From: a virus
Lineage: Duplodnaviria > Caudoviricetes
Virus record (IMG/VR): IMGVR_UViG_3300036760_000139
Coordinates: 1,685 to 65,684 of that record
Direction: 5' to 3' (one strand)
Length of the DNA stretch: 64,000 nucleotides
A program made the translations under genes and the position numbers. Positions 783 to 61,642 of the stretch are shown here, in pieces. The notes beneath the pieces were generated by a model. The model was not told the DNA's origin and made no database searches. It worked only from the letters and a program-made list of their open reading frames with translations. The first letter of the stretch is position 1, and every line of letters starts with the position of its first letter.

Positions 783-860
783 GGGGCTGTAGCTCAGCCT
801 GGATAGAGCGCCAGTTTCCTAAACTGGATGTCGCCGGTTCGATTCCGGTCAGCCCCTCCA
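783..860 (+). tRNA. tRNA-Arg (anticodon CCT)
   Basis: Acceptor GGGGCTG/CAGCCCC, D arm GCTC/GAGC, anticodon arm CCAGT-TTCCTAA-ACTGG, T loop TTCGATT, encoded CCA. Confidence 0.95.
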
Positions 861-1149: not shown

Positions 1150-2238
1150 TCAAAATTGCCCTCGCCCCGTGGAGGCCCCTGGAAGGCTCCAGGACAGGCG
1201 ATCGGTTGTCGCCCGCTCCCCGGTGTCACCCCAGGCCCGATGTCCAGCCAGCGCCCCGAGCAGTACGCGCTCGACCAACTGCGCCATCGGTCTCCTGACC
1301 GGCTCGACGGCCTGCGCCCGGATGTACCCGGGAGTCGCAGTGCCGGATGTCCGATGTCCAAGGGCGTCGGCAACCTGGTCTTGCGTGAATCCCCCGTACC
1401 TCACCGCCCACGTCGAGAACGTCGCGCGCCCGAGTCCGGGTCCGCTCCAGGTCCGCGTTCCGGCGCGCGCCGAGGCACGGACCAGCGCCGACCGGACAGC
1501 CGCCTCGGTGGCCGCCACCAACGACCCCGACAGTGGGAGCAGGGCAGCGAGGGTGTCCACGACCGGGACGACATGCTCATCGTTGGTCTTGCGCTCCCGC
1601 AGGAGCAGTACCTTGTCGCGCAGCGAGAGGTCGCGGGTGTGGGCGCGCATCGCCTCTGAGGCTCGCATTCCGGTGAACAGGCAGAGACCGACCGCTACCC
1701 GTGCGGGGCCTCGCAACTCGTGCCAGAGACGCGCCATCTCCTCGGGTTCTGGCACCTGCCGGTGGCGCTCCACGACGCGCAGCCTCGGCATTCGCCACCC
1801 CGGTACGATCTCGCATTCGAGCGCCTCACCAGCGCGCACCGTCATGCGGTAGAGCAACGCGAGTTCGGCGCGCAGCGTCCGGTTGCCCACGGGACAAGTA
1901 CCCTGGCGGCGGTGTAGGACGTACCCCTGGATGTCGGTGCCAGTAAGTCGGTTGAGGATGGCCACCCCCAAAAAGTGTTCCTCAAGCCGGGCGTACTTGA
2001 CCTTGTAGTAACGGAGGGTGGTCTCAGGGCTCCCGGCGTCGCGCAGTCCGGTCTTGTAGAGGTTCCACGCTTCTTGTAGCGTCACGATGCGGGGCAACGG
2101 GGCAAGTCCCGCCGTCCTCCTGTCCATGTTCCGTTCCCACTCCTCGGCATCCGGCTTCCGCCGGAAACTCGCCCGATACTCCCTCTTGTTGATCTGTCTC
2201 CTGCACCGATACACCCCGCGCTCCACGTCCCACCTCAT
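1150..2238 (-). CDS. int: Tyrosine recombinase / phage integrase
   Basis: Arm-binding-like N-terminus; TGMRASE (R), RERKT (K), GLGR at the HxxR position, LGH, TPGY (Y). Start may lie upstream (to 2319). Confidence 0.9.
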   Translation of the reverse strand: MRWDVERGVYRCRRQINKREYRASFRRKPDAEEWERNMDRRTAGLAPLPRIVTLQEAWNLYKTGLRDAGSPETTLRYYKVKYARLEEHFLGVAILNRLTGTDIQGYVLHRRQGTCPVGNRTLRAELALLYRMTVRAGEALECEIVPGWRMPRLRVVERHRQVPEPEEMARLWHELRGPARVAVGLCLFTGMRASEAMRAHTRDLSLRDKVLLLRERKTNDEHVVPVVDTLAALLPLSGSLVAATEAAVRSALVRASARAGTRTWSGPGLGRATFSTWAVRYGGFTQDQVADALGHRTSGTATPGYIRAQAVEPVRRPMAQLVERVLLGALAGHRAWGDTGERATTDRLSWSLPGASTGRGQF

Positions 2239-2353
2239 TGAGGTTTTGTCCCTCTGCGCTTTCGTAGTTGGGTCAATAGGAAAATCCAGAGGAGTGCGCC
2301 CATCACATACGGCACCCAAAGGAAGATCCAGAGGAGCGTTCTCATCTCAACCC

Positions 2354-20661: not shown

Positions 20662-20946
20662 GTGCCAGTGACTATCACCTTCGCGGCCTCGATCAGCGAT
20701 AGAAAGACAGCAATCCAACGCTCTGGCCTGCTCGAGGGCGGGGGGGCCGTGACGTTCGACCTGCCCGAGACCGAACTCGGCGCACTGGCCGCACTCCTGC
20801 CACTCGCCCGGGTCCCACTGCGGATCACAGTCGAAGTAGACACCGAGACGGCCATCATCCCGCAGCAGGAGGAGCCAGCAGACACCGGCGAGGAGCCGAG
20901 ACCAACATGGGCAGGGCAACGAAAGGCGCACAAGAGGCGGGATTAA
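20662..20946 (+). CDS. Hypothetical protein
   Basis: SD GGAGGGG; precedes TerS. Confidence 0.55.
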   Translation: MPVTITFAASISDRKTAIQRSGLLEGGGAVTFDLPETELGALAALLPLARVPLRITVEVDTETAIIPQQEEPADTGEEPRPTWAGQRKAHKRRD

Positions 20947-21485
20947 GCAATGACCGCCAGGAAATGTTCTGTCATGCGTATCTTGCCAATGGGCTGAATG
21001 CGAAGGCCGCTTGTATTGCAGTTGGTTACAGCGCCAAGGGCGCAGAGGTGCAGGCGGCAAGACTGTTAGGCAGTGCTAGGGTGCAGGCTCGCATAGCTCA
21101 GTTGCAGGCGCCCATCATCGAAAAGCTGGAGATCAGCACCGAACGTGTCCTCGACGAGGTCGCGGCTTGCGCCTTTGGTCGCGCTGACCGCATCTTCAAG
21201 TGGGGACCCGGCGGCGTGCTGATCGTAGACATGGACCAGGTGCCAGAGGACCAGAGGGCTGCGGTCGCCGAGGTTTCGCAGACGTTCAGCGAGAGTAGCA
21301 GCACTGTGCGCCTAAAGATGCACGACAAACTCTCGGCCCTCAGACTCTTGGGCCAATACCTCAAATTGTGGGGCGACAACAAGATTGAACTTACGGTACC
21401 TTGGGCCAAGGAGTTGGCGGCCATGACCGCTGACGAACTCCGGGCCCGGGCAGACGCCTTGCGGGCGGCGCGGGAGAAGGGATGA
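20907..21485 (+). CDS. terS: Terminase small subunit
   Basis: RQEMFCHAYL..GLNAKAACIAVGYS...AARLL; KMHDKLSALRLLGQYL. Confidence 0.9.
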   Translation: MGRATKGAQEAGLSNDRQEMFCHAYLANGLNAKAACIAVGYSAKGAEVQAARLLGSARVQARIAQLQAPIIEKLEISTERVLDEVAACAFGRADRIFKWGPGGVLIVDMDQVPEDQRAAVAEVSQTFSESSSTVRLKMHDKLSALRLLGQYLKLWGDNKIELTVPWAKELAAMTADELRARADALRAAREKG

Positions 21486-21864: not shown

Positions 21865-22151
21865 TGAGAGACCAAGGGTGTCGGCAGTGCCAGCAACTCA
21901 CGTGCGGCGATTGCGGGATGCACGACGGCTACTACCTGGATGGCGTCTATCACTGGGCGGATATCGGAAATGCCCAGTTCACGACCAACCAACGTCCATT
22001 CGCATGTCCCGTTTGCAACGGTGGCGGCACGGTCTCGCGTCCGCCTTTCGTAGCTGGTGATTGTCCGCAGTGGGTGCAAGGTGGTGGACCATACGTATAC
22101 CCATGCGAGGCTTGCAATGGCTCCGGGATTGTGTGGGGTCCTCTGCGGTGA
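21864..22151 (+). CDS. Cys-rich protein with DnaJ-type CxxCxGxG motifs
   Basis: CPVCNGGG, CEACNGSG. Confidence 0.6.
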   Translation: MRDQGCRQCQQLTCGDCGMHDGYYLDGVYHWADIGNAQFTTNQRPFACPVCNGGGTVSRPPFVAGDCPQWVQGGGPYVYPCEACNGSGIVWGPLR

Positions 22152-22831
22152 GCCGTGACCACGAGTTGCAGCGGTACTTGACCGAACTGGCCATCGACGA
22201 GCAGCGGTACAAGGCAGACTGCTGGACGTGGCTGGTCGAGCAAGTTGTGACGATCGACGAGGCGACCAAGTCCGAGCGCCGGTGGCCCGCGCATCTCGAC
22301 TACCTGCACGACTTCGTTGACGTGCTCAGCGACCCGGACGAGCATTACATCGCCGTCCCCAAGAGTCGCCGGATGATGGTCTCCTGGTGCCTGGCCGCCT
22401 GGTGCGCACACCTGGCCCGGTACCACGAGAACGTCCTTGTACTCTGGCAGTCCGAGACCGAGGCCAAGGCCGCCGAGGCCGTAGACCGGCGCATGGTGTT
22501 CATCGAGGACCACCTGATCGAACCCGTTCTCCGGCGACCCTACAAGGGACAGCGGACCAAGGACGGACTGATCGGCCGGCTGACGTACCTGCCTACTGGC
22601 AGTCGGGTGATTGCCGTTGCCCAGGGCGCTGATGTGTTCAGGTTCTACACGCCTAGCGTGGTTGTTCTCGACGAGGCGGACTTCCAGGACGAGGGGCACG
22701 ATGCGCTGGTGGCGGCTATCCCGTTCGGCGAAAAGGGCGGCAAGGTCATCCTCGTTTCCTCGAGTAACGGCCCCGGGCGGCCAGTGGCAACGATCTGCAA
22801 GGGCGTGGGTTTCGTTCGGTATCGATCCTAA
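22148..22831 (+). CDS. terL: Terminase large subunit, ATPase domain only
   Basis: Walker A variant PKSRRMMVS, Walker B VVVLDEAD, coupling motif VSSSNG, then a stop. Confidence 0.85.
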   Translation: MSRDHELQRYLTELAIDEQRYKADCWTWLVEQVVTIDEATKSERRWPAHLDYLHDFVDVLSDPDEHYIAVPKSRRMMVSWCLAAWCAHLARYHENVLVLWQSETEAKAAEAVDRRMVFIEDHLIEPVLRRPYKGQRTKDGLIGRLTYLPTGSRVIAVAQGADVFRFYTPSVVVLDEADFQDEGHDALVAAIPFGEKGGKVILVSSSNGPGRPVATICKGVGFVRYRS

Positions 22832-22844
22832 CATTGGAGAAATT

Positions 22845-23135
22845 ATGCGAGTAAGTGACAAACAGATCGAGAAGATGGCTCAATCAGGGGCAGATGACAT
22901 GCTCGAATTGATAGCACAAGAATGCAGGGACGCTCGTTACGAACTGAAAATCTCTATGAATGAACACAAAAAGACCATCACTGAATTAAAACACGCCGAG
23001 GCACTGACTGAGAAAAAAGAGGCAGAACTGACCGCGTTGCGTGCGTATATCGCTACGCATAACGCGCCTGTCCATGACCCGCTGAGACAGTATCGGGTAC
23101 ATCGAGGGCCGTGCGGCGAAGATGGTTGTCACTAA
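22845..23135 (+). CDS. Coiled-coil hypothetical protein (AT-richer than surroundings)
   Basis: SD GGAG; A-rich codons. Confidence 0.55.
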   Translation: MRVSDKQIEKMAQSGADDMLELIAQECRDARYELKISMNEHKKTITELKHAEALTEKKEAELTALRAYIATHNAPVHDPLRQYRVHRGPCGEDGCH

Positions 23136-23206
23136 GTAAGCGGGCGTCGTGCGGTCGGCATCGCGTTCCGACCAGCCGGATGATCCGGTCGGCGCCCTGA
23201 TTTTGT

Positions 23207-23277
23207 CGCGGGGTCTCTGGTGAGGAGCGCGGGCCCATAACCCGGGCAGGAGAGTTCAACTCTCTCCCCCGCAACCA
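23207..23277 (+). tRNA. Atypical initiator-like tRNA-Met (CAT) with a reduced D arm
   Basis: CGCGGGG/CCCCGCA with C1xA72, GGG-CCCATAA-CCC, GAGAG-TTCAACT-CTCTC, ACCA end. Confidence 0.75.
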
Positions 23278-23347
23278 CCTTGAGGCTCGCGCCTGCATTG
23301 TATTTCACGCGGATGGTTTCAGCGGCCATCCAGGAGAAATAAACGTG

Positions 23348-23725
23348 GATCTGAACCCTCGCTCGTCGGGGCAGTAGGATCCCTCCGAGCCCCACAGAGC
23401 TGGTGCTGATTCATGCCGGCCAGGGGCTCCCTTGCCCGGAGGTGTCAGGGTTTAATGAAGACACCTGGCGCGTCACCTGCGCCAATGCGTGTCCGGAACA
23501 CGCGGGAGTCGGATTGGCTATAGAGCTCAAGCCGACGACAGTGGTGAGCTAGGCGGGAGGCAGTCCCGCCAATCTTGCTACGCAATGCCGCGCAAAACAG
23601 GATTGCGCAGGATGAATGACACGTCGCCGCCCTCTGACGAGCGGGTGGATAGGGTAAAGCCCAAGGTCTAGACCAAGGATGACGGCCCCCAGGTGGATCT
23701 AAAGGCCACCCGGCGACTCCAGATC
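23348..23725 (+). ncRNA. Candidate large structured non-coding RNA
   Basis: No credible ORF; many nested helices, closed by GATCTG/CAGATC; abuts tRNA-Trp. Confidence 0.6.
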
Positions 23726-23801
23726 GCGCTGATAGCTCAATTGGTAGAGTCCCGGTCTCCAAAACCGGTGGCTGGGGGTTCGAGTCCCTCTCGGCGCGCC
23801 A
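23726..23801 (+). tRNA. tRNA-Trp (CCA)
   Basis: GCGCTGA/TCGGCGC, CCGGT-CTCCAAA-ACCGG, TTCGAGT, CCA. Confidence 0.93.
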
Positions 23802-23906
23802 ATCGTATACGCCCGCCTGACGCGCAGGGCGTACAACTGGTCCAGGGTGACACCTAGAGGCGGCCGACTACCCATCGCCTGTCTCAGAGGCAAGGAGAGG
23901 CACGCA

Positions 23907-24125
23907 ATGGCAAGGACGAAGAAGAAAGCGCGCCCGGTCAACCCCCGCTTCCTCCGGGACCTGACCTGTGACCGCGTAATCGTCGGCCGCAACCCTCGGG
24001 TGTGCGAGACGTGCCTTGGGGCCAGTGTTTTGTTCAACATACCCGGCAAGATATACGACTGTCCGGCGTGCTTCGGGATGGCGATTGAGTGGAACGGCAG
24101 TCTGGATGGAGGCGATGGGCAGTAA
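23907..24125 (+). CDS. Small zinc-finger protein
   Basis: CETCLG...CPACFG; SD AAGGAG. Confidence 0.55.
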   Translation: MARTKKKARPVNPRFLRDLTCDRVIVGRNPRVCETCLGASVLFNIPGKIYDCPACFGMAIEWNGSLDGGDGQ

Positions 24126-24278
24126 CCAGAATGTGAAGGCCAAGCGTAACAAGCGTGGCGCGACCGGCCTGAAGAAGGTCAGGCATCACAAGGGCAACCC
24201 GCCCGGCAGAATTGGGGACGGCTCGGCAAAGTTCCCAGCACGGCAACCACAGGGCGCGAAACAGAAGAGGGGGCAGCC

Positions 24279-25184
24279 ATGAAGTCCTTCACCGAGATCC
24301 TGGCCGCTGTCTACGACCCGGGGTTCTGGCAGGTCATTGACGAGTGGGGCGATTACTGCATCTTCTGTGGGGCGTCCGATGGCAGGGACCAGTTCGAGCG
24401 GGGTGAGATCCACCACTACGGCTCCTGCCTGTTGCGCGAGATACGGGTTCACCTGATGCAGCAGGTTGCCATGCCCCGCCGGTTCAGGGAGGCAGCCATC
24501 GAGCAACTCGCGGCGTTTCAGGCGATCAAGGCCGAGAGGGCCGAGGCCGACCCGTCGTACCCGGACTACGGGAGTGGCGGACTGTCGCCGACTGCCGCCG
24601 AGGCCGAAGCGATGCCAGCGGCAGAAGTAGTGCCCGAGGCGGAGGTCTACCGCACTGCGCGCGCCGAACCCGAGGTGGTGCCTGTAGTCCAACCTGAGCG
24701 TTTGCACAGTTGGCAGTCAATGAAGAACGGCAAGGCCGCGCGCTGCACGAACTGTGGCCTGGTCGCGCTCAATGGCGCTCCGGCCCTCAACGTCGGTGTG
24801 GTCCGATGTCAAGCTCCCCACCATCCAGAACCAAGCCAGTCTGATGTGTGTCCCGGCCGCAACCCAGACTTGCCAGCGCCCGCTGAGGTCAAGGCCGTTC
24901 AGCCAGCGGTCCCCTTGGTCCAGGTCATGTGCCCGCGGTGCCACGCCACCGAGGTCGTTCCGGCAACCGGCGGCGTTCTACCGGACCTGCCGCAGATCAC
25001 ACTAGGCAACGGCCCGTTCATGGTCGTCTCATGGGTACAGCCTGCCCTCGGCAGGCAGACAGGGGTTTACTGCAAGACGTGTTGGTCGGACACCATTGCC
25101 TCGTTCATCACGGCGACTCTCCCGCCCGCCGTCATCTGCCATCCGGCACAGACCAGTGATCCCGGTCCCGGCCAACCGGCCTGA
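24279..25184 (+). CDS. Multi-zinc-finger hypothetical protein
   Basis: CIFC, CTNC, CPRC, CKTC motifs with Pro/Ala/Glu linkers. Confidence 0.6.
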   Translation: MKSFTEILAAVYDPGFWQVIDEWGDYCIFCGASDGRDQFERGEIHHYGSCLLREIRVHLMQQVAMPRRFREAAIEQLAAFQAIKAERAEADPSYPDYGSGGLSPTAAEAEAMPAAEVVPEAEVYRTARAEPEVVPVVQPERLHSWQSMKNGKAARCTNCGLVALNGAPALNVGVVRCQAPHHPEPSQSDVCPGRNPDLPAPAEVKAVQPAVPLVQVMCPRCHATEVVPATGGVLPDLPQITLGNGPFMVVSWVQPALGRQTGVYCKTCWSDTIASFITATLPPAVICHPAQTSDPGPGQPA

Positions 25185-25185
25185 T

Positions 25186-25524
25186 ATGCCAAGAGACATC
25201 AAGAAGAGGCGCGAGAACAACCGGAGGTATCAGGCAAGGCTTCGTAAGGAGAATCCCGAGAGAGAACACGCGAACACACGTAGGCGTTTTCTCATGCGTG
25301 CGTATGGTCTCACCCCCGGAGAGTACGACGCGCTGGTGGTTACTCAAAATGGACGGTGTTCCATCTGTGGGTGTGGAGATGAACGCCTATGTGTTGACCA
25401 TGACCACGTAACCGGAATTGTCCGTGGCCTGCTCTGCCGTAACTGCAATGGCGGTATCGGACTCTTGCAAGATAATCCAGACCTGACCGAGAAGGCAACC
25501 GCCTACCTGCGGGGGGGTGCGTGA
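25186..25524 (+). CDS. Endonuclease VII-type HNH endonuclease
   Basis: YGL...QNGRCSIC...VDHDHVTGIVRGLLCRNCN. Confidence 0.9.
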   Translation: MPRDIKKRRENNRRYQARLRKENPEREHANTRRRFLMRAYGLTPGEYDALVVTQNGRCSICGCGDERLCVDHDHVTGIVRGLLCRNCNGGIGLLQDNPDLTEKATAYLRGGA

Positions 25525-26387
25525 GTGTTTCTTTGCGCGTCTTGCGGCCCATTAAGACTGCTGGCGGGTGGACGGTTTTGCCTATTCATTATTCTCACGA
25601 TCCAGCCAAGACTCGCGAATGGGCAGCCGAGGCCAAGATGACGTATCCCCAAGAGGCGGACTGGGATCGAGAGTTAGAGATTGATTTCGGCGCCCTGAGT
25701 GGCGTGAGAGCTTATCCAAAATTCGCTCGCCCGCTGCACCTTCGCCATGCTGCCGATGTCATCTATAACCCCATGCTCCCACTTTGTTTGTGCATCGACT
25801 TCAATGTCGGGTTCATGAGTTGGCCGGTCGCGCAGATCGTCAACAACGAGCCGGTGGCCATTACCGAGATCACGTTGGAGCCAGCAGACATCCCGAGCAT
25901 GGCCAGGGCTTTCCGCAACAGGTTCCCGGCGCACCCCGCCGAACTCTGGATCTTCGGCGACGCCTCGGGTCACGCGCGCTCAGTCCAGAGCCAGCAGAGC
26001 AACTACGACCTACTGCGCCTGGCGCTTTCCGACTACTCGGCGCCCGTGGTGATGATGGTCCCGGAGGTCAACCCTCCGATCCACACCCGCCTGAACAGCG
26101 TCAACACGAAACTGATGACGCCGGCGGGCAAGCCGGGATGCGTGATCTCGGATGCCTGCCTGAATCTGATTGCGGACTTCGAGGAAGTGCTCCTCGATCC
26201 GAAGGGCCACGGCGTAGTCAAAGTGTCGGACCCCCGGCACCCCTACTTCAAGCGCACCCACAGTTCGGACGGATGGGGGTACTTCTGCGCCAGGGAATGG
26301 CCAGTGGTCGAGGAACTGTTCCGTAGCGAGACCAAACCCGAGAAGATGCCCGAGTTGGTGTACGGGCGCCTCGCGGGAGACCTGTAA
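25521..26387 (+). CDS. terL: Terminase large subunit, RNase H-like nuclease domain
   Basis: HYSHDP, WDRELEIDF, IDFN, GDASG, HSSDGWGY. Confidence 0.82.
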   Translation: MSVSLRVLRPIKTAGGWTVLPIHYSHDPAKTREWAAEAKMTYPQEADWDRELEIDFGALSGVRAYPKFARPLHLRHAADVIYNPMLPLCLCIDFNVGFMSWPVAQIVNNEPVAITEITLEPADIPSMARAFRNRFPAHPAELWIFGDASGHARSVQSQQSNYDLLRLALSDYSAPVVMMVPEVNPPIHTRLNSVNTKLMTPAGKPGCVISDACLNLIADFEEVLLDPKGHGVVKVSDPRHPYFKRTHSSDGWGYFCAREWPVVEELFRSETKPEKMPELVYGRLAGDL

Positions 26388-60983: not shown

Positions 60984-61519
60984 GGCCGGTCCTCGACTTC
61001 AAGAACGCATCCAACCGCGAGCAGGTGAAGGCGTCCGCGCTGCGCTTCGGGCTTGAGCCGGAGCTGGTTGCCGCCCTCGTCATGCAGGAGTCCGGGGGCA
61101 AGTCCGACGCCTGGAACCCCGAGCCCCGCTATCAGTGGTTTTGGGATGTGAAAGCCCAAAGGCCCTTTCGGAGGGTCACGCAGGCAGAGGTCGCGTCGAA
61201 GTTCCCGCCGGCCGACTTCCCGTGCCGGGCCGGGGACCGCGATCAAGAATGGTGGGGCCAGCAGGCGTCATGGGGACTCCTTCAGATCATGGGGGCTTGC
61301 GCCCGCGAGGCTGGCTGCCATCTTGAGTACCTGCCGGGCCTGTGCGATCCGACCGAGGGCCTGGAGTGGGGCTGCCGGTGGCTTGCCAAGCTGGTGAGCC
61401 GGTTCGCGGCGGGTGCCGTGAGTGCCTACAACGCCGGTCATCCACAACCCGGAAGTGTATACGAGCAGGGTGTTTTGGCCTGGAGAGACAAACTTCGTCC
61501 GCTGTTCGTTTCCACCTGA
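60980..61519 (+). CDS. Lytic transglycosylase (SLT) endolysin
   Basis: LVAALVMQESGG, SWGLLQIMG, AYNAG. Confidence 0.9.
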   Translation: MRPVLDFKNASNREQVKASALRFGLEPELVAALVMQESGGKSDAWNPEPRYQWFWDVKAQRPFRRVTQAEVASKFPPADFPCRAGDRDQEWWGQQASWGLLQIMGACAREAGCHLEYLPGLCDPTEGLEWGCRWLAKLVSRFAAGAVSAYNAGHPQPGSVYEQGVLAWRDKLRPLFVST

Positions 61520-61566
61520 GTAACGTAACGCCGGGTGTTCGTTTTCCTCGGCGATTCCGTCCAAGT

Positions 61567-61642
61567 GTGGCCGTAGCTCAATTGGTAGAGCGGCAGACTG
61601 TGGCTCTGCTGGTTCGGGATTCGAGGTCCCGCGGCCACCCCA
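61567..61642 (+). tRNA. tRNA-His (GTG)
   Basis: GTGGCCG/CGGCCAC, C73, GCAGA-CTGTGGC-TCTGC, CCA. Confidence 0.9.

What the first reader, a model, noticed from the sequence alone, without database searches (positions are those of the whole stretch)
23304..23725. Candidate large, ornate non-coding RNA between tRNA-Met and tRNA-Trp
Seen: nested helices GATCTG(23348)/CAGATC(23720), TCGGGGCA(23366)/TGCCCGGA(23433), GAGCCCC(23387)/GGGGCTC(23423), AGGTGTC(23440)/GACACCT(23460), GGCGC/GCGCC, GCGTGT(23487)/ACACGC(23498), GGAGTCG(23505)/CGACTCC(23714), AGCTCA/TGAGCT, GGCGGGA/TCCCGCC (with an alternative GATTGGC/GCCAATC), GCGCAA/TTGCGC and GGTGG/CCACC, plus an upstream GGATGG/CCATCC hairpin. The closing helix ends at the base before tRNA-Trp, so tRNA processing would release the RNA. 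I could not see tmRNA, RNase P or intron signatures. Known: GOLLD and ROOL RNAs occur beside phage tRNAs. Inference: a member of those classes or a new one.
Basis: partly seen in the sequence, partly recalled or inferred. Interest (0 to 1): 0.78.

Follow-up and report, generated by a model that had tools for sequence, protein, structure and literature searches.

The report
Modular structured RNAs beside phage tRNAs
The stretch is real, conserved, non-coding structured RNA of no described family, but it is a string of separately shuffled RNA modules (one conserved 225-base core, tRNA look-alikes, a true tRNA) inside a split phage packaging gene, not one large closed RNA.

Summary
No Rfam family other than tRNA matches it or its relatives.

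Comparison with 12 related phage loci shows a mosaic in the gap of a terminase-large gene split in two:
- A: three-way junction, 23142-23199.
- B: initiator-tRNA-like cloverleaf, 23207-23277.
- C: lineage-specific insert, 23278-23386.
- D: conserved core, 23387-23611.
- E: cloverleaf-shaped tRNA mimic ending UCCA, 23621-23721.
- tRNA-Trp, then leader F.

Modules come and go, and E even changes place.

Compensatory changes support A, B, D and E. D's 3' half is more conserved than the flanking genes.

Best reading: a co-transcribed, tRNA-punctuated array that releases a new structured RNA (D). Its function is unknown. The family was found only in one uncultured sediment-phage clade.

The parts
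22061..22831 (+). Context: N-terminal piece of the terminase large subunit (ATPase part), ending in its own stop codon
   Evidence: phrog_2 'terminase large subunit' E 1.8e-7. Weak Pfam GpA_ATPase hit. The stop is at the same place in 12 related loci.
23142..23199 (+). Module A: 58-nt three-way junction. An 8-bp closing stem encloses two hairpins. It ends 9 nt before module B.
   Evidence: MFE -31.8, z -2.45. nhmmer finds it in the window and 12 locus rows, 11 distinct contigs. The three A helices hold 4 pairs with compensatory change and 98.6-100% of cells paired.
23207..23277 (+). Module B: 71-nt tRNA-like cloverleaf with anticodon CAU. It has a C1.A72 mismatch, GGG/CCC next to the anticodon loop, a 4-nt D loop, a 2-nt variable region and an encoded ACCA end.
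   Evidence: Cloverleaf MFE -34.1, z -2.63. tRNA-Sec model 23.4 bits (gathering 47) and Tymo_tRNA-like 23.1 bits (gathering 40). ARAGORN does not call it. Compensatory changes occur in the acceptor, anticodon and T stems.
23278..23386 (+). Module C: lineage-specific insert. It holds hairpin GGATGG 23311-23316 / CCATCC 23326-23331, then AGGAG 23332-23336 and a GTG mini-ORF 23345-23377 (10 codons). A second local hairpin is GGATC 23347-23351 / GATCC 23378-23382.
   Evidence: nhmmer finds it only in the window, L007 and L014. DNA runs X9 and X14 hold a form that joins 23277 to 23345. Hairpins and the mini-ORF were read.
23387..23519 (+). Module D, 5' domain. It comprises D1 (23387-23429), an H-type pseudoknot (GCCCG 23434-23438 with AGGGT 23447-23451, crossing GGTGTC 23441-23446 / GACACC 23460-23465), hairpin D3 (23466-23484, invariant loop GTCACCT) and variable hairpin D4 (23487-23503).
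   Evidence: Alignment A3 of 8 loci. 96.4% of cells paired, 12 pairs with change on both sides, 0 of 500 shuffles, slid controls 35-44%. Identity to the window is only 73-89%.
23520..23611 (+). Module D, 3' domain: nearly invariant 92 nt. It holds hairpin GGCGGGA/TCCCGCC (23552-23570) inside either GTGGTGAG/CTTGCTAC or AGCTCA/TGAGCT, followed by a last hairpin (23582-23606).
   Evidence: 93.5-96.7% identical in 6 relatives whose TerL-N DNA is 77-94% identical. All changes keep pairing in one or other model. No open frame is kept and substitutions fall 33/32/30 over the codon positions.
23621..23721 (+). Module E: ~100-nt cloverleaf-shaped four-way junction. It has a 7-bp closing stem (GTCGCCG 23623-23629 / CGGCGAC 23711-23717), a first hairpin, a long middle arm with a variable tip, and a 5-bp hairpin abutting the closing stem, then T-CCA.
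   Evidence: and alignment A5. 97% of cells paired, 5 pairs with change on both sides, 0 of 500 shuffles. The model built from it (R1) scores the two tRNA-Cys genes of L009/L010 at 18.9 bits. A second-locus copy in L028 sits 7 nt before tRNA-His.
23726..23801 (+). tRNA-Trp (CCA)
   Evidence: ARAGORN. Rfam tRNA 66.2 bits. In the gap only in the window, L007 and L014.
23802..23906 (+). Leader F: conserved 105-nt 5' region with AAGGAG before the ATG at 23907. It has a ~70-nt paralog at 1185-1257 (-).
   Evidence: 90-99% identical in 6 relatives. nhmmer finds it in all loci that reach this point, plus the paralogs. No convincing shared fold.
25096..25524 (+). Context: endonuclease VII / HNH-type gene whose end overlaps the start of the C-terminal terminase piece
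   Evidence: PF02945 E 1.1e-20. phrog_2914 E 1.5e-32.
25521..26387 (+). Context: C-terminal piece of the terminase large subunit
   Evidence: phrog_10250 'terminase large subunit' E 1.7e-9.

Best explanation
The interval is part of a ~590-nt array (23142-23725) of separate structured-RNA modules on the + strand. The array lies in the 2.7-kb gap between the two pieces of a fractured terminase-large gene and follows the order A - B - C - D - E - tRNA-Trp - leader F.

Shown: the modules are conserved, non-coding, single-copy, and assort independently between close relatives. A, B, D and E keep their helices through compensatory changes. None belongs to an Rfam family.

Inferred: the array is transcribed with the late packaging operon. 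The tRNA and tRNA-shaped modules (B, E, tRNA-Trp, perhaps A) act as punctuation for the host's tRNA-processing enzymes, with RNase P cutting at their 5' sides and 3' trimming back to the encoded CCA. This cuts the TerL-N message from the downstream message and releases D as a discrete stable RNA. With C, as in this window, D is about 340 nt. Where D follows B directly, it is about 230 nt.

D is then a new structured RNA. Its variable, pseudoknotted 5' domain is held by structure. Its invariant 3' domain is held by sequence, most likely as a binding surface for a protein or another nucleic acid, acting in trans. What it binds is not known.
For: No known family.

Modularity. At least 7 architectures occur among 11 informative loci:
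- C only in the window, L007, L014.
- E after D in the window, L007, L014, L018; before D in L017; absent in L009, L013, L015.
- tRNA-Trp in 3 loci.
- tRNA-Cys in L009 and L010.
- Endonuclease gene inserted after TerL-N in L018.
 DNA runs add further joints.

Structure:
- D: 96.4% of cells paired, 12 pairs changed on both sides, 0 of 500 shuffles, slid controls 35-44%.
- E: 97%, 5 pairs, 0 of 500.
- A+B: 97.4%, 7 pairs, 0 of 500.
- G-U-preserving changes fit the + strand only.

Non-coding: no frame stays open across all 8 sequences, indels of 1, 2, 8 and 10 nt occur, and substitutions fall 33/32/30 by codon position.

Constraint: the D 3' domain is 93-97% identical against 77-94% for TerL-N DNA.

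tRNA likeness:
- B folds as a cloverleaf ending ACCA.
- E has a 7-bp stem plus an abutting 5-bp hairpin plus U-CCA.
- The E model weakly hits true tRNA-Cys genes.
- E ends 8 nt before tRNA-Trp, and its paralog ends 7 nt before tRNA-His.

Independence from F: D is equally conserved where E and tRNA-Trp separate it from F.

Transcription hint: an 802-nt contig of metatranscriptome run X24 (depth 13.4) covers 23148-23277 and 23459-23623 of an L018-like relative.
Against: - No RNA ends were seen. The only RNA data are assembled contigs, which show neither ends nor strand, and DNA carry-over in that library is not excluded.
- That contig is continuous across A-B-D. This fits an unprocessed precursor as well as DNA.
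- Covariation rests on 8 (D), 5 (E) and 9 (A/B) closely related sequences from one clade. The shuffle control ignores relatedness.
- In 4 D-bearing loci (L009, L013, L015, L017) D runs straight into leader F with no tRNA-like module at its 3' side. There it would be a 5' leader, not a free RNA.
- B is below threshold for every tRNA model and has C instead of U before the anticodon in the window.
- B's acceptor stem is damaged in L015.
- E occurs without a downstream tRNA in L017 and L018.
- The high identity of D's 3' half and of F could come from DNA-level causes.
Confidence: 0.55

Rival explanations
1. Cis-acting leader. D's conserved 3' domain together with F forms a long structured 5' untranslated region. 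It controls stability, processing or translation of the downstream genes (ORF 23907-24125 onwards, including the second terminase piece). It is not a free RNA.
For: D abuts F directly in L009, L013, L015 and L017. Conservation runs without a break from D's 3' domain through F to the Shine-Dalgarno sequence and start codon. F keeps its place even where the downstream gene differs, as in L017.
Against: In the window, L007, L014 and L018, 105-190 nt (E, with or without a real tRNA that would be cut out) separate D from F. D is no less conserved there. F has a paralog elsewhere without D.
Confidence: 0.22
2. One reading: one large ornate RNA (~380-420 nt) closed by GATCTG/CAGATC and GGAGTCG/CGACTCC, released whole by tRNA processing, of the GOLLD/ROOL kind.
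For: Both helices exist in the window and in L007 and L014. The interval folds better than shuffles. GGGAGTCG occurs in 5 of 5 loci that carry E in the gap and is altered in 3 of 3 without E.
Against: The outer helix needs C, which 3 of 8 D-bearing loci have. It is not in the MFE. It competes with a local hairpin (GGATC 23347 / GATCC 23378). Helices of 6-7 bp are expected by chance. E stands before D in L017 and next to tRNA-His without D in L028, and there its own closing stem changes on both sides. No GOLLD or ROOL match.
Confidence: 0.08
3. DNA-level element. The near-invariance of D's 3' half and of F reflects a DNA site or recent gene conversion, and the RNA fold there is incidental. Candidates are a homing-endonuclease target with co-conversion tracts, a recombination hot spot, or a terminase recognition site.
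For: Endonuclease VII/HNH-type genes sit in the same gap at three different places (window 25096-25524; L018 after TerL-N; L017 after F). The region is a mosaic with discordant identities between neighbouring segments. Many metagenome contigs break here. F has a paralog with two invariant cores but no shared fold.
Against: The 5' domain of D, and A, B and E, show compensatory and G-U-preserving changes that only an RNA on the + strand explains. The few changes in D's 3' half also keep pairing. Contig breaks lie at different points.
Confidence: 0.1
4. New self-cleaving ribozymes that mature the neighbouring tRNAs, in the manner of theta (HDV-like) ribozymes. D1 would cut just after B. A and E would cut just before B, tRNA-Trp or tRNA-His.
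For: D starts 5 nt after B's CCA in L009, L015 and L018. A and E end 7-9 nt before a tRNA(-like) 5' end in three cases. Theta ribozymes lie within 5 nt of phage tRNA 3' ends, often tRNA-Met (PMC10879173, passages read).
Against: No ribozyme family matched at E up to 10. Threading the HDV-like fold on D1 by hand finds no second-pseudoknot partner strand. The CTGACGA string in E is not kept in the L028 copy. E also stands alone in L017 and L018.
Confidence: 0.04

Closest known systems
GOLLD and ROOL RNAs (large ornate RNAs of phages and prophages)
   Same: Large structured non-coding RNA of unknown function in a phage, beside tRNA genes. [quoted passage not shown] D has the same layout in small.
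   Different: No match to either Rfam model, even at E up to 10. D is ~225 nt (~340 with C) against more than 800 nt for many GOLLD RNAs (same passages). It was found in one phage clade only. Multimer formation was not tested.
Phage T4 RNAC and RNAD (small RNAs of the T4 tRNA region)
   Same: Small RNAs transcribed from a phage tRNA gene region, with roles still unknown (PMC3014915, passage read). T4's tRNA region also holds a homing endonuclease gene, segB (PMC2330249, abstract and passages). This matches the mix of tRNAs, extra RNAs and endonuclease genes seen here.
   Different: No sequence or structure comparison was possible because I held no T4 RNA sequences. That these RNAs have tRNA-like ends and are cut by RNase P is my recollection and is not in the texts I read. 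Here the array sits inside a split terminase gene.
Theta (minimal HDV-like) ribozymes next to phage tRNAs
   Same: Small structured RNAs that abut phage tRNA ends and are proposed to mature them, often beside tRNA-Met (PMC10879173). D begins 5 nt after the tRNA-like B in three loci.
   Different: No HDV-like fold or Rfam ribozyme hit. A and E lie upstream, not downstream, of tRNAs. Self-cleavage was not tested.
Fractured genes / genes broken by free-standing homing endonucleases
   Same: A conserved phage gene is broken into two ORFs kept in order, with an endonuclease gene between them whose end overlaps the start of the second piece. This is as in the model of PMC2677866 (passages), which includes a terminase and notes intein-less cases.
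   Different: By reading, I see no intein-sized extra sequence at the break. The gap has grown to 2.7 kb and carries RNA genes. This concerns the setting, not the RNA.
Bacterial initiator tRNA (for module B)
   Same: CAU anticodon, mismatch at the top of the acceptor stem (C.A), three G-C pairs next to the anticodon loop, and a discriminator A plus CCA. These are the hallmarks as I recall them; the features themselves were read.
   Different: 71 nt, with a 4-nt D loop and a 2-nt variable region. C instead of U before the anticodon in the window. Below threshold in all tRNA models.

Membership tests
GOLLD RNA (Rfam) | Match to the family covariance model at or above its gathering score | tested here: not met
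   No GOLLD row at gathering, nor at E up to 10 on 23100-23900, on 22700-25650, or at E up to 5 on five relatives.
ROOL RNA (Rfam) | Match to the family covariance model at or above its gathering score | tested here: not met
   No ROOL row.
GOLLD/ROOL kind | Assembly into RNA-only multimeric cages | not testable with these tools
   Needs biophysics or cryo-EM. Known for GOLLD and ROOL from 10.1101/2024.12.08.627333.
tRNA (module B) | Detected by tRNA finders or models | tested here: not met
   ARAGORN made no call. RF00005 gave no row. The best hit is tRNA-Sec at 23.4 bits against a gathering score of 47.
tRNA (module B) | Cloverleaf with a 7-nt anticodon loop and a 3' CCA, kept by compensatory change | tested here: met
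   Cloverleaf MFE. The four B helices are 89-100% paired, with changes on both sides in three of them. Exception: the acceptor stem of L015 has a mismatch and an extra base.
tRNA (module E) | Anticodon arm with a 7-nt loop, and a canonical T loop | tested here: not met
   The middle arm is long, with a variable tip, and the last hairpin has an 8-9-nt loop. No Rfam tRNA row on E. Only the four-way shape, the 7+5 bp stack and the U-CCA tail are tRNA-like.
tmRNA | tRNA-like domain plus a tag reading frame, detected by ARAGORN or Rfam | tested here: not met
   No tmRNA or in the ARAGORN runs on the relatives. No tmRNA row.
RNase P RNA | Match to the bacterial or archaeal RNase P models | tested here: not met
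   No row.
Group I / group II intron (would splice the two terminase pieces) | Match to the intron core models anywhere in the gap | tested here: not met
   No intron row at E up to 10 over 22700-25650. The TerL-N stop codon is kept in all relatives.
Small self-cleaving ribozymes (hammerhead, HDV-like, twister, pistol, hatchet) | Match to a family model; conserved catalytic core | tested here: not met
   No row. The hammerhead-like CTGACGA string in E is not conserved in the L028 copy. Actual cleavage is not testable here.
Stable RNAs of phage tRNA clusters (T4 RNAC/RNAD type) | Co-transcribed with tRNAs and processed to a discrete stable species | not testable with these tools
   Only assembled RNA contigs were available. 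They show neither ends nor abundance.

The most novel reading that the evidence does not exclude
D is the founding member of a new class of trans-acting phage RNA. A and E would be a new family of tRNA-shaped 'handle' modules that travel with tRNA genes as exchangeable RNA cassettes. The handles would recruit the host's tRNA-processing enzymes, so that a phage can insert, move and release RNA cargo inside an operon. Because the array sits exactly in the break of the packaging ATPase gene, D's invariant 3' domain could bind the terminase pieces or the small basic zinc-ribbon proteins encoded next to it, and so take part in packaging.
Probability: 0.15. Interest if true: 0.8.

Novelty: new variant of a known kind. 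Interest (0 to 1): 0.55.

Why it matters
Phage tRNA islands are where the largest unexplained bacterial RNAs (GOLLD, ROOL) and the still unexplained T4 RNAC/RNAD live.

This locus offers a small, tractable case. It has a 225-nt core with a well-supported pseudoknotted fold and an almost invariant 3' domain. tRNA look-alikes flank it, and natural variants have already added, removed or swapped them.

That natural 'deletion series' makes two questions directly testable:
- Do tRNA-shaped modules serve as processing handles for neighbouring RNAs?
- Does the core work free or as an mRNA leader?

The locus also shows a terminase gene split without an intein that has become a landing pad for tRNAs, endonucleases and RNA genes.

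The limits are a narrow distribution (one uncultured sediment-phage clade), no known host and no direct expression data.

Tried and rejected
Known families. Rfam at gathering and at permissive E-values gave only tRNA rows and sub-threshold tRNA-like hits on B. This held for the window, the whole gap and five relatives. tmRNA: ARAGORN found none.

Intron joining the terminase pieces: rejected (stop codon conserved).

Split intein at the break. By reading, only 11 residues follow the last Cys of TerL-N. The C-piece matches a terminase profile from residue 50, with no intein-sized surplus. I did not run an intein profile.

Hammerhead in E: the core string is not conserved. HDV-like fold on D1: threading by hand failed.

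Other readings dropped:
- A CRISPR-repeat-mimic reading of E's 5' part rested only on a recalled resemblance and could not be tested.
- The alternative helix GATTGGC/GCCAATC is not kept in L017, L009 or L007 (read).
- A closing helix CTCCC/GGGAG around D2-D4 conflicts with D1 and is not kept in L009 or L013.
- Coding: rejected.

Searches for more copies or relatives:
- nhmmer and the E model found one copy per locus.
- The E model does not hit module A, so the likeness of A's and E's 3' halves is by eye only.
- Cultured phages: only the tRNA-Trp part matches (358 records, none covering 80%). The portal protein has 5 distant hits of at most 25.8% identity.
- Bacterial and archaeal genomes: no relative by protein pattern or by a 23-nt core pattern.
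- IMG/VR pattern scans gave L002 and L028 as true relatives. L004, L005, L020-L027, L029-L037 and L040-L045 are chance or unrelated matches. L040/L044 lie in a Pro/Gly-rich reading frame.
- No sigma-70-type promoter or terminator pattern was found by the scan in 23136-23906, or before the L028 E copy.

Sequencing runs. All 24 listed runs are sediment metagenomes by their labels. The parts of the stretch without RNA-contig cover in X24 (23361-23447, 23651-23708, 23825-23882) are no evidence of absence.

Structure hits in PDB: TerL-N against T4 gp17 only at E 0.49, and TerL-C none.

Not available or not used:
- Supplementary files were not consulted. Those of PMC10879173 may hold ribozyme descriptors that could be run on D1.
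Full report
WHAT IS THERE. The window is 64 kb of a 65.7-kb IMG/VR virus record. ARAGORN finds three tRNAs: Arg 783-860, Trp 23726-23801 and His 61567-61642. Rfam at gathering thresholds returns only these three tRNAs. At E up to 10 on 23100-23900 it adds only sub-threshold tRNA-like hits at 23205-23277 (tRNA-Sec model 23.4 bits, Tymovirus tRNA-like 23.1 bits). Nothing falls on 23279-23725. The same holds for the whole 22700-25650 gap and for five relatives. The interval 23304-23725 folds at -180.9 kcal/mol against -161.7 +/- 6.6 for 100 dinucleotide shuffles (z -2.92). Perfect 6- and 7-base complementary pairs are common in shuffles too: 39 against 26.3 +/- 6.2, and 12 against 7.4 +/- 3.4. 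A single long-range helix of that size therefore carries no weight by itself.

SETTING. The terminase small subunit is at 20907-21485 (PF03592). ORF 22061-22831 is the ATPase part of the large subunit (phrog_2; weak match to T4 gp17 residues 141-290, E 0.49). ORF 25521-26387 is a terminase-large C-terminal piece (phrog_10250), and the portal gene follows. Between the two pieces lie:
- a 96-codon ORF (22845-23135);
- the RNA region;
- ORFs 23907-24125 and 24279-25184;
- an endonuclease VII/HNH-type gene (25096-25524, PF02945 E 1e-20), whose end overlaps the start of the C-piece.
This is the 'fractured gene' layout described for phage genes invaded by free-standing endonucleases (PMC2677866, passages). 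By reading, there is no intein-sized surplus here.

RELATIVES AND MODULARITY. TerL-N brought in two IMG/VR loci and 14 metagenome loci (L013 is the same contig as L002). blastn, ARAGORN and direct reading of the DNA downstream of TerL-N show that the region is built of modules that come and go:
- Window (and L008 as far as it reaches): ORF96 - A - B - C - D - E - tRNA-Trp - F.
- L007 and L014: A - B - C - D - E - tRNA-Trp - F.
- L009 (L010 partial): tRNA-Cys - A - B - D - F.
- L015: A - B (variant) - D - F.
- L018: endonuclease VII gene (PF02945) - A - B - D - E - F.
- L017: A - B - E - about 140 unrelated bases - D - F, then other genes.
- L002/L013: A - a stub of B - D without the 5' strand of its first helix - F.
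- L012: A, then D from its second hairpin.
- L016 (83% TerL-N identity): none of the modules.
DNA runs add forms that join 23277 to 23345, 23438 to 23520 and 23611 to 23802. In those three, both arms of GATCTG/CAGATC are invariant. The 3' arm of TCGGGGCA/TGCCCGGA is changed without compensation in L007 and L014 (5 of 8 pairs in L014, by reading).

THE CORE, D (23387-23611). Eight sequences align over 246 columns. RNAalifold and my curation give the following elements:
- D1, a long hairpin.
- An H-type pseudoknot: GCCCG 23434-23438 with AGGGT 23447-23451, crossing GGTGTC 23441-23446 / GACACC 23460-23465.
- D3, a hairpin with the invariant loop GTCACCT.
- D4, a variable hairpin.
- A 3' domain made of helices P5-P8.
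On this structure 96.4% of 474 cells are standard pairs and 12 of 60 pairs change on both sides. None of 500 column shuffles reaches the observed values for percentage paired, number of pairs changed on both sides, number of cells changed on both sides, or covariation score. The count of further pair types is reached by 385 of 500. Sliding the partners by 1-3 columns drops pairing to 35-44%. The strongest helices are GGTGTC/GACACC (5 of 6 pairs compensatory) and D3 (3 of 7). The pseudoknot stem has two covarying pairs. The 3' domain (23520-23611) hardly varies. L015 breaks 3 of 6 pairs of AGCTCA/TGAGCT. No reading frame stays open in all eight sequences, indels are 1, 2, 8 and 10 nt, and variable columns fall 33/32/30 on the three codon positions. 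D's 3' domain is 93.5-96.7% identical to the window in six relatives, and F is 90-99%. TerL-N DNA is 77-94% identical, ORF 23907-24125 is 80-99%, and D's own 5' domain is 73-89%.

THE tRNA LOOK-ALIKES. B (23207-23277) folds as a cloverleaf. It has anticodon CAU, a C.A mismatch at the top of the acceptor stem, GGG/CCC next to the anticodon loop and an encoded ACCA end. As I recall them, these are the hallmarks of a bacterial initiator tRNA. B also has a 4-nt D loop and a 2-nt variable region, and in the window a C before the anticodon. Its stems change in a compensatory way between lineages. L015's copy has a damaged acceptor stem.

E (23621-23721) is a four-way junction. A 7-bp closing stem is followed at once by a hairpin, then by a long middle arm with a variable tip (a GAAA-capped stub in L028, an extra hairpin in the window), then by a 5-bp hairpin that abuts the 3' strand of the closing stem, then by U-CCA. 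Five pairs change on both sides, among them the closing stem (U-A, U-G, G-C) and the last hairpin (U-A to C-G). 97% of cells pair and 0 of 500 shuffles reach this. A covariance model of E scores the true tRNA-Cys genes of L009 and L010 at 18.9 bits (E 0.077) and nothing else convincing.

A second-locus copy of E lies in L028, a contig of a related phage. It sits 7 nt upstream of tRNA-His, where the window has no E. E therefore stands before tRNA-Trp, before tRNA-His, or alone.

A (23142-23199) is a three-way junction with compensatory changes in all three helices. It is found in the window and in every one of 11 distinct related contigs that reach that point, and it ends 9 nt before B.

EXPRESSION. 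One metatranscriptome run (X24) holds an 802-nt contig of depth 13.4 that covers 23148-23277 and 23459-23623, with 86 other letters between. Its differences match the L018-type relative. This fits transcription of A-B-D as one precursor. However, contigs show neither strand nor ends, and DNA in the library is not excluded.

HOW IT MOST LIKELY WORKS. Shown: the anatomy, the conservation, the non-coding nature, and the independent assortment of the modules. Inferred: the array is transcribed with the late operon. tRNA-Trp, B and E (perhaps A) are recognised by the host's tRNA-processing enzymes, which separates the upstream and downstream messages and frees D. One argument favours a role for D that does not depend on being joined to leader F: D is just as conserved in the four loci where E, and in three of them a real tRNA that must be cut out, stand between D and F. 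One argument points the other way: in four other loci D runs straight into F, so there it would be the 5' leader of the next message. I put 0.55 on the processed-array reading, with D as a new RNA acting mainly in trans.

COMPARISON WITH WHAT IS KNOWN. In kind, this resembles GOLLD and ROOL. These are phage RNAs near tRNA islands. GOLLD has a conserved 3' and a variable 5' region, sometimes has tRNAs in its linker, and one member lies downstream of a Met-tRNA (10.1101/2024.12.08.627333, passages). It also resembles T4's RNAC and RNAD, small RNAs from the tRNA region with unknown roles (PMC3014915, passage). Membership in GOLLD, ROOL, tmRNA, RNase P, introns and the small ribozymes was tested with Rfam and not met. 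Theta ribozymes (PMC10879173, passages) are the nearest known case of small structured RNAs abutting phage tRNA ends. D1 starts 5 nt after B in three loci, but it does not thread onto the HDV-like fold.

DISTRIBUTION AND LIMITS. Cultured phages match only the tRNA-Trp part. The portal protein has five hits of at most 25.8% identity. One genome per species of bacteria and archaea gave nothing. Eight IMG/VR scans gave two true related contigs. All 24 listed runs that hold the stretch are labelled sediment metagenomes. The host is unknown.

VERDICT. This is a real set of structured RNAs that is new to the catalogues. It is best described as a modular, tRNA-punctuated RNA array with one conserved core, not as a single ornate giant. 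Interest 0.55.

Noticed in passing
window 22061-22831 and 25521-26387 (with 25096-25524): The terminase large subunit is encoded in two ORFs 2.7 kb apart. An endonuclease VII/HNH-type gene overlaps the start of the second piece, and no intein-sized surplus is visible. The break seems to lie inside the ATPase domain (weak gp17 alignment to residues 141-290).
   Followed up: partly
window 23207-23277: A miniature initiator-like tRNA: 71 nt, CAU anticodon, C.A top pair, GGG/CCC, tiny D loop, ACCA encoded. tRNA finders miss it, but it is conserved with compensatory changes in 6 relatives. Whether it is charged or used is unknown.
   Followed up: partly
window 23802-23906 and 1185-1257 (-); L028 1087-1158 (+): Leader F has a ~70-nt paralog inside the 3' tail of the integrase ORF, next to tRNA-Arg, in both the window and a relative. 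The invariant cores are GGGTGACACC and ATCGCCTGTC. In F the matching frame holds a stop. No shared fold was found.
   Followed up: partly
window 1150-2319 (-) and 783-860 (+): A tyrosine integrase (PF00589, 41 bits) lies next to tRNA-Arg(CCT), which suggests a temperate phage that integrates at a tRNA gene. att sites were not looked for.
   Followed up: no
L028 7089-7181 (-) versus window 61490-61566: A copy of module E lies just upstream of tRNA-His in a related phage. It is absent at the same place in the window, where the spacer is unrelated.
   Followed up: yes
L009 1938-2012, L010: A tRNA-Cys gene starts at the very stop codon (TGA) of TerL-N in two relatives, so the tRNA's first bases supply the stop.
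   Followed up: no
window 23332-23377: A Shine-Dalgarno-like AGGAG sits 8 nt before a GTG that opens a 10-codon mini-ORF inside module C. The mini-ORF is 8 codons in L007 and L014. It could be a leader peptide or chance.
   Followed up: no
window 23907-24125 and 24106-24282: Two small overlapping ORFs follow F: a 72-residue protein with two CxxC pairs and a basic N-terminus, and a very basic 58-residue protein. Neither has a Pfam or PHROG hit. They are candidates for nucleic-acid binders.
   Followed up: no
window 23504-23511 versus relatives (alignment A3 columns 139-146): GGGAGTCG is present in 5 of 5 loci that carry E in the gap. It is AAGAGTCG or GGATGTCG in 3 of 3 loci without E. This could reflect a D-E contact or shared ancestry.
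   Followed up: partly
L017 623-764: About 140 nt of unrelated, hairpin-rich sequence lie between E and D in this relative only. It was not analysed.
   Followed up: no
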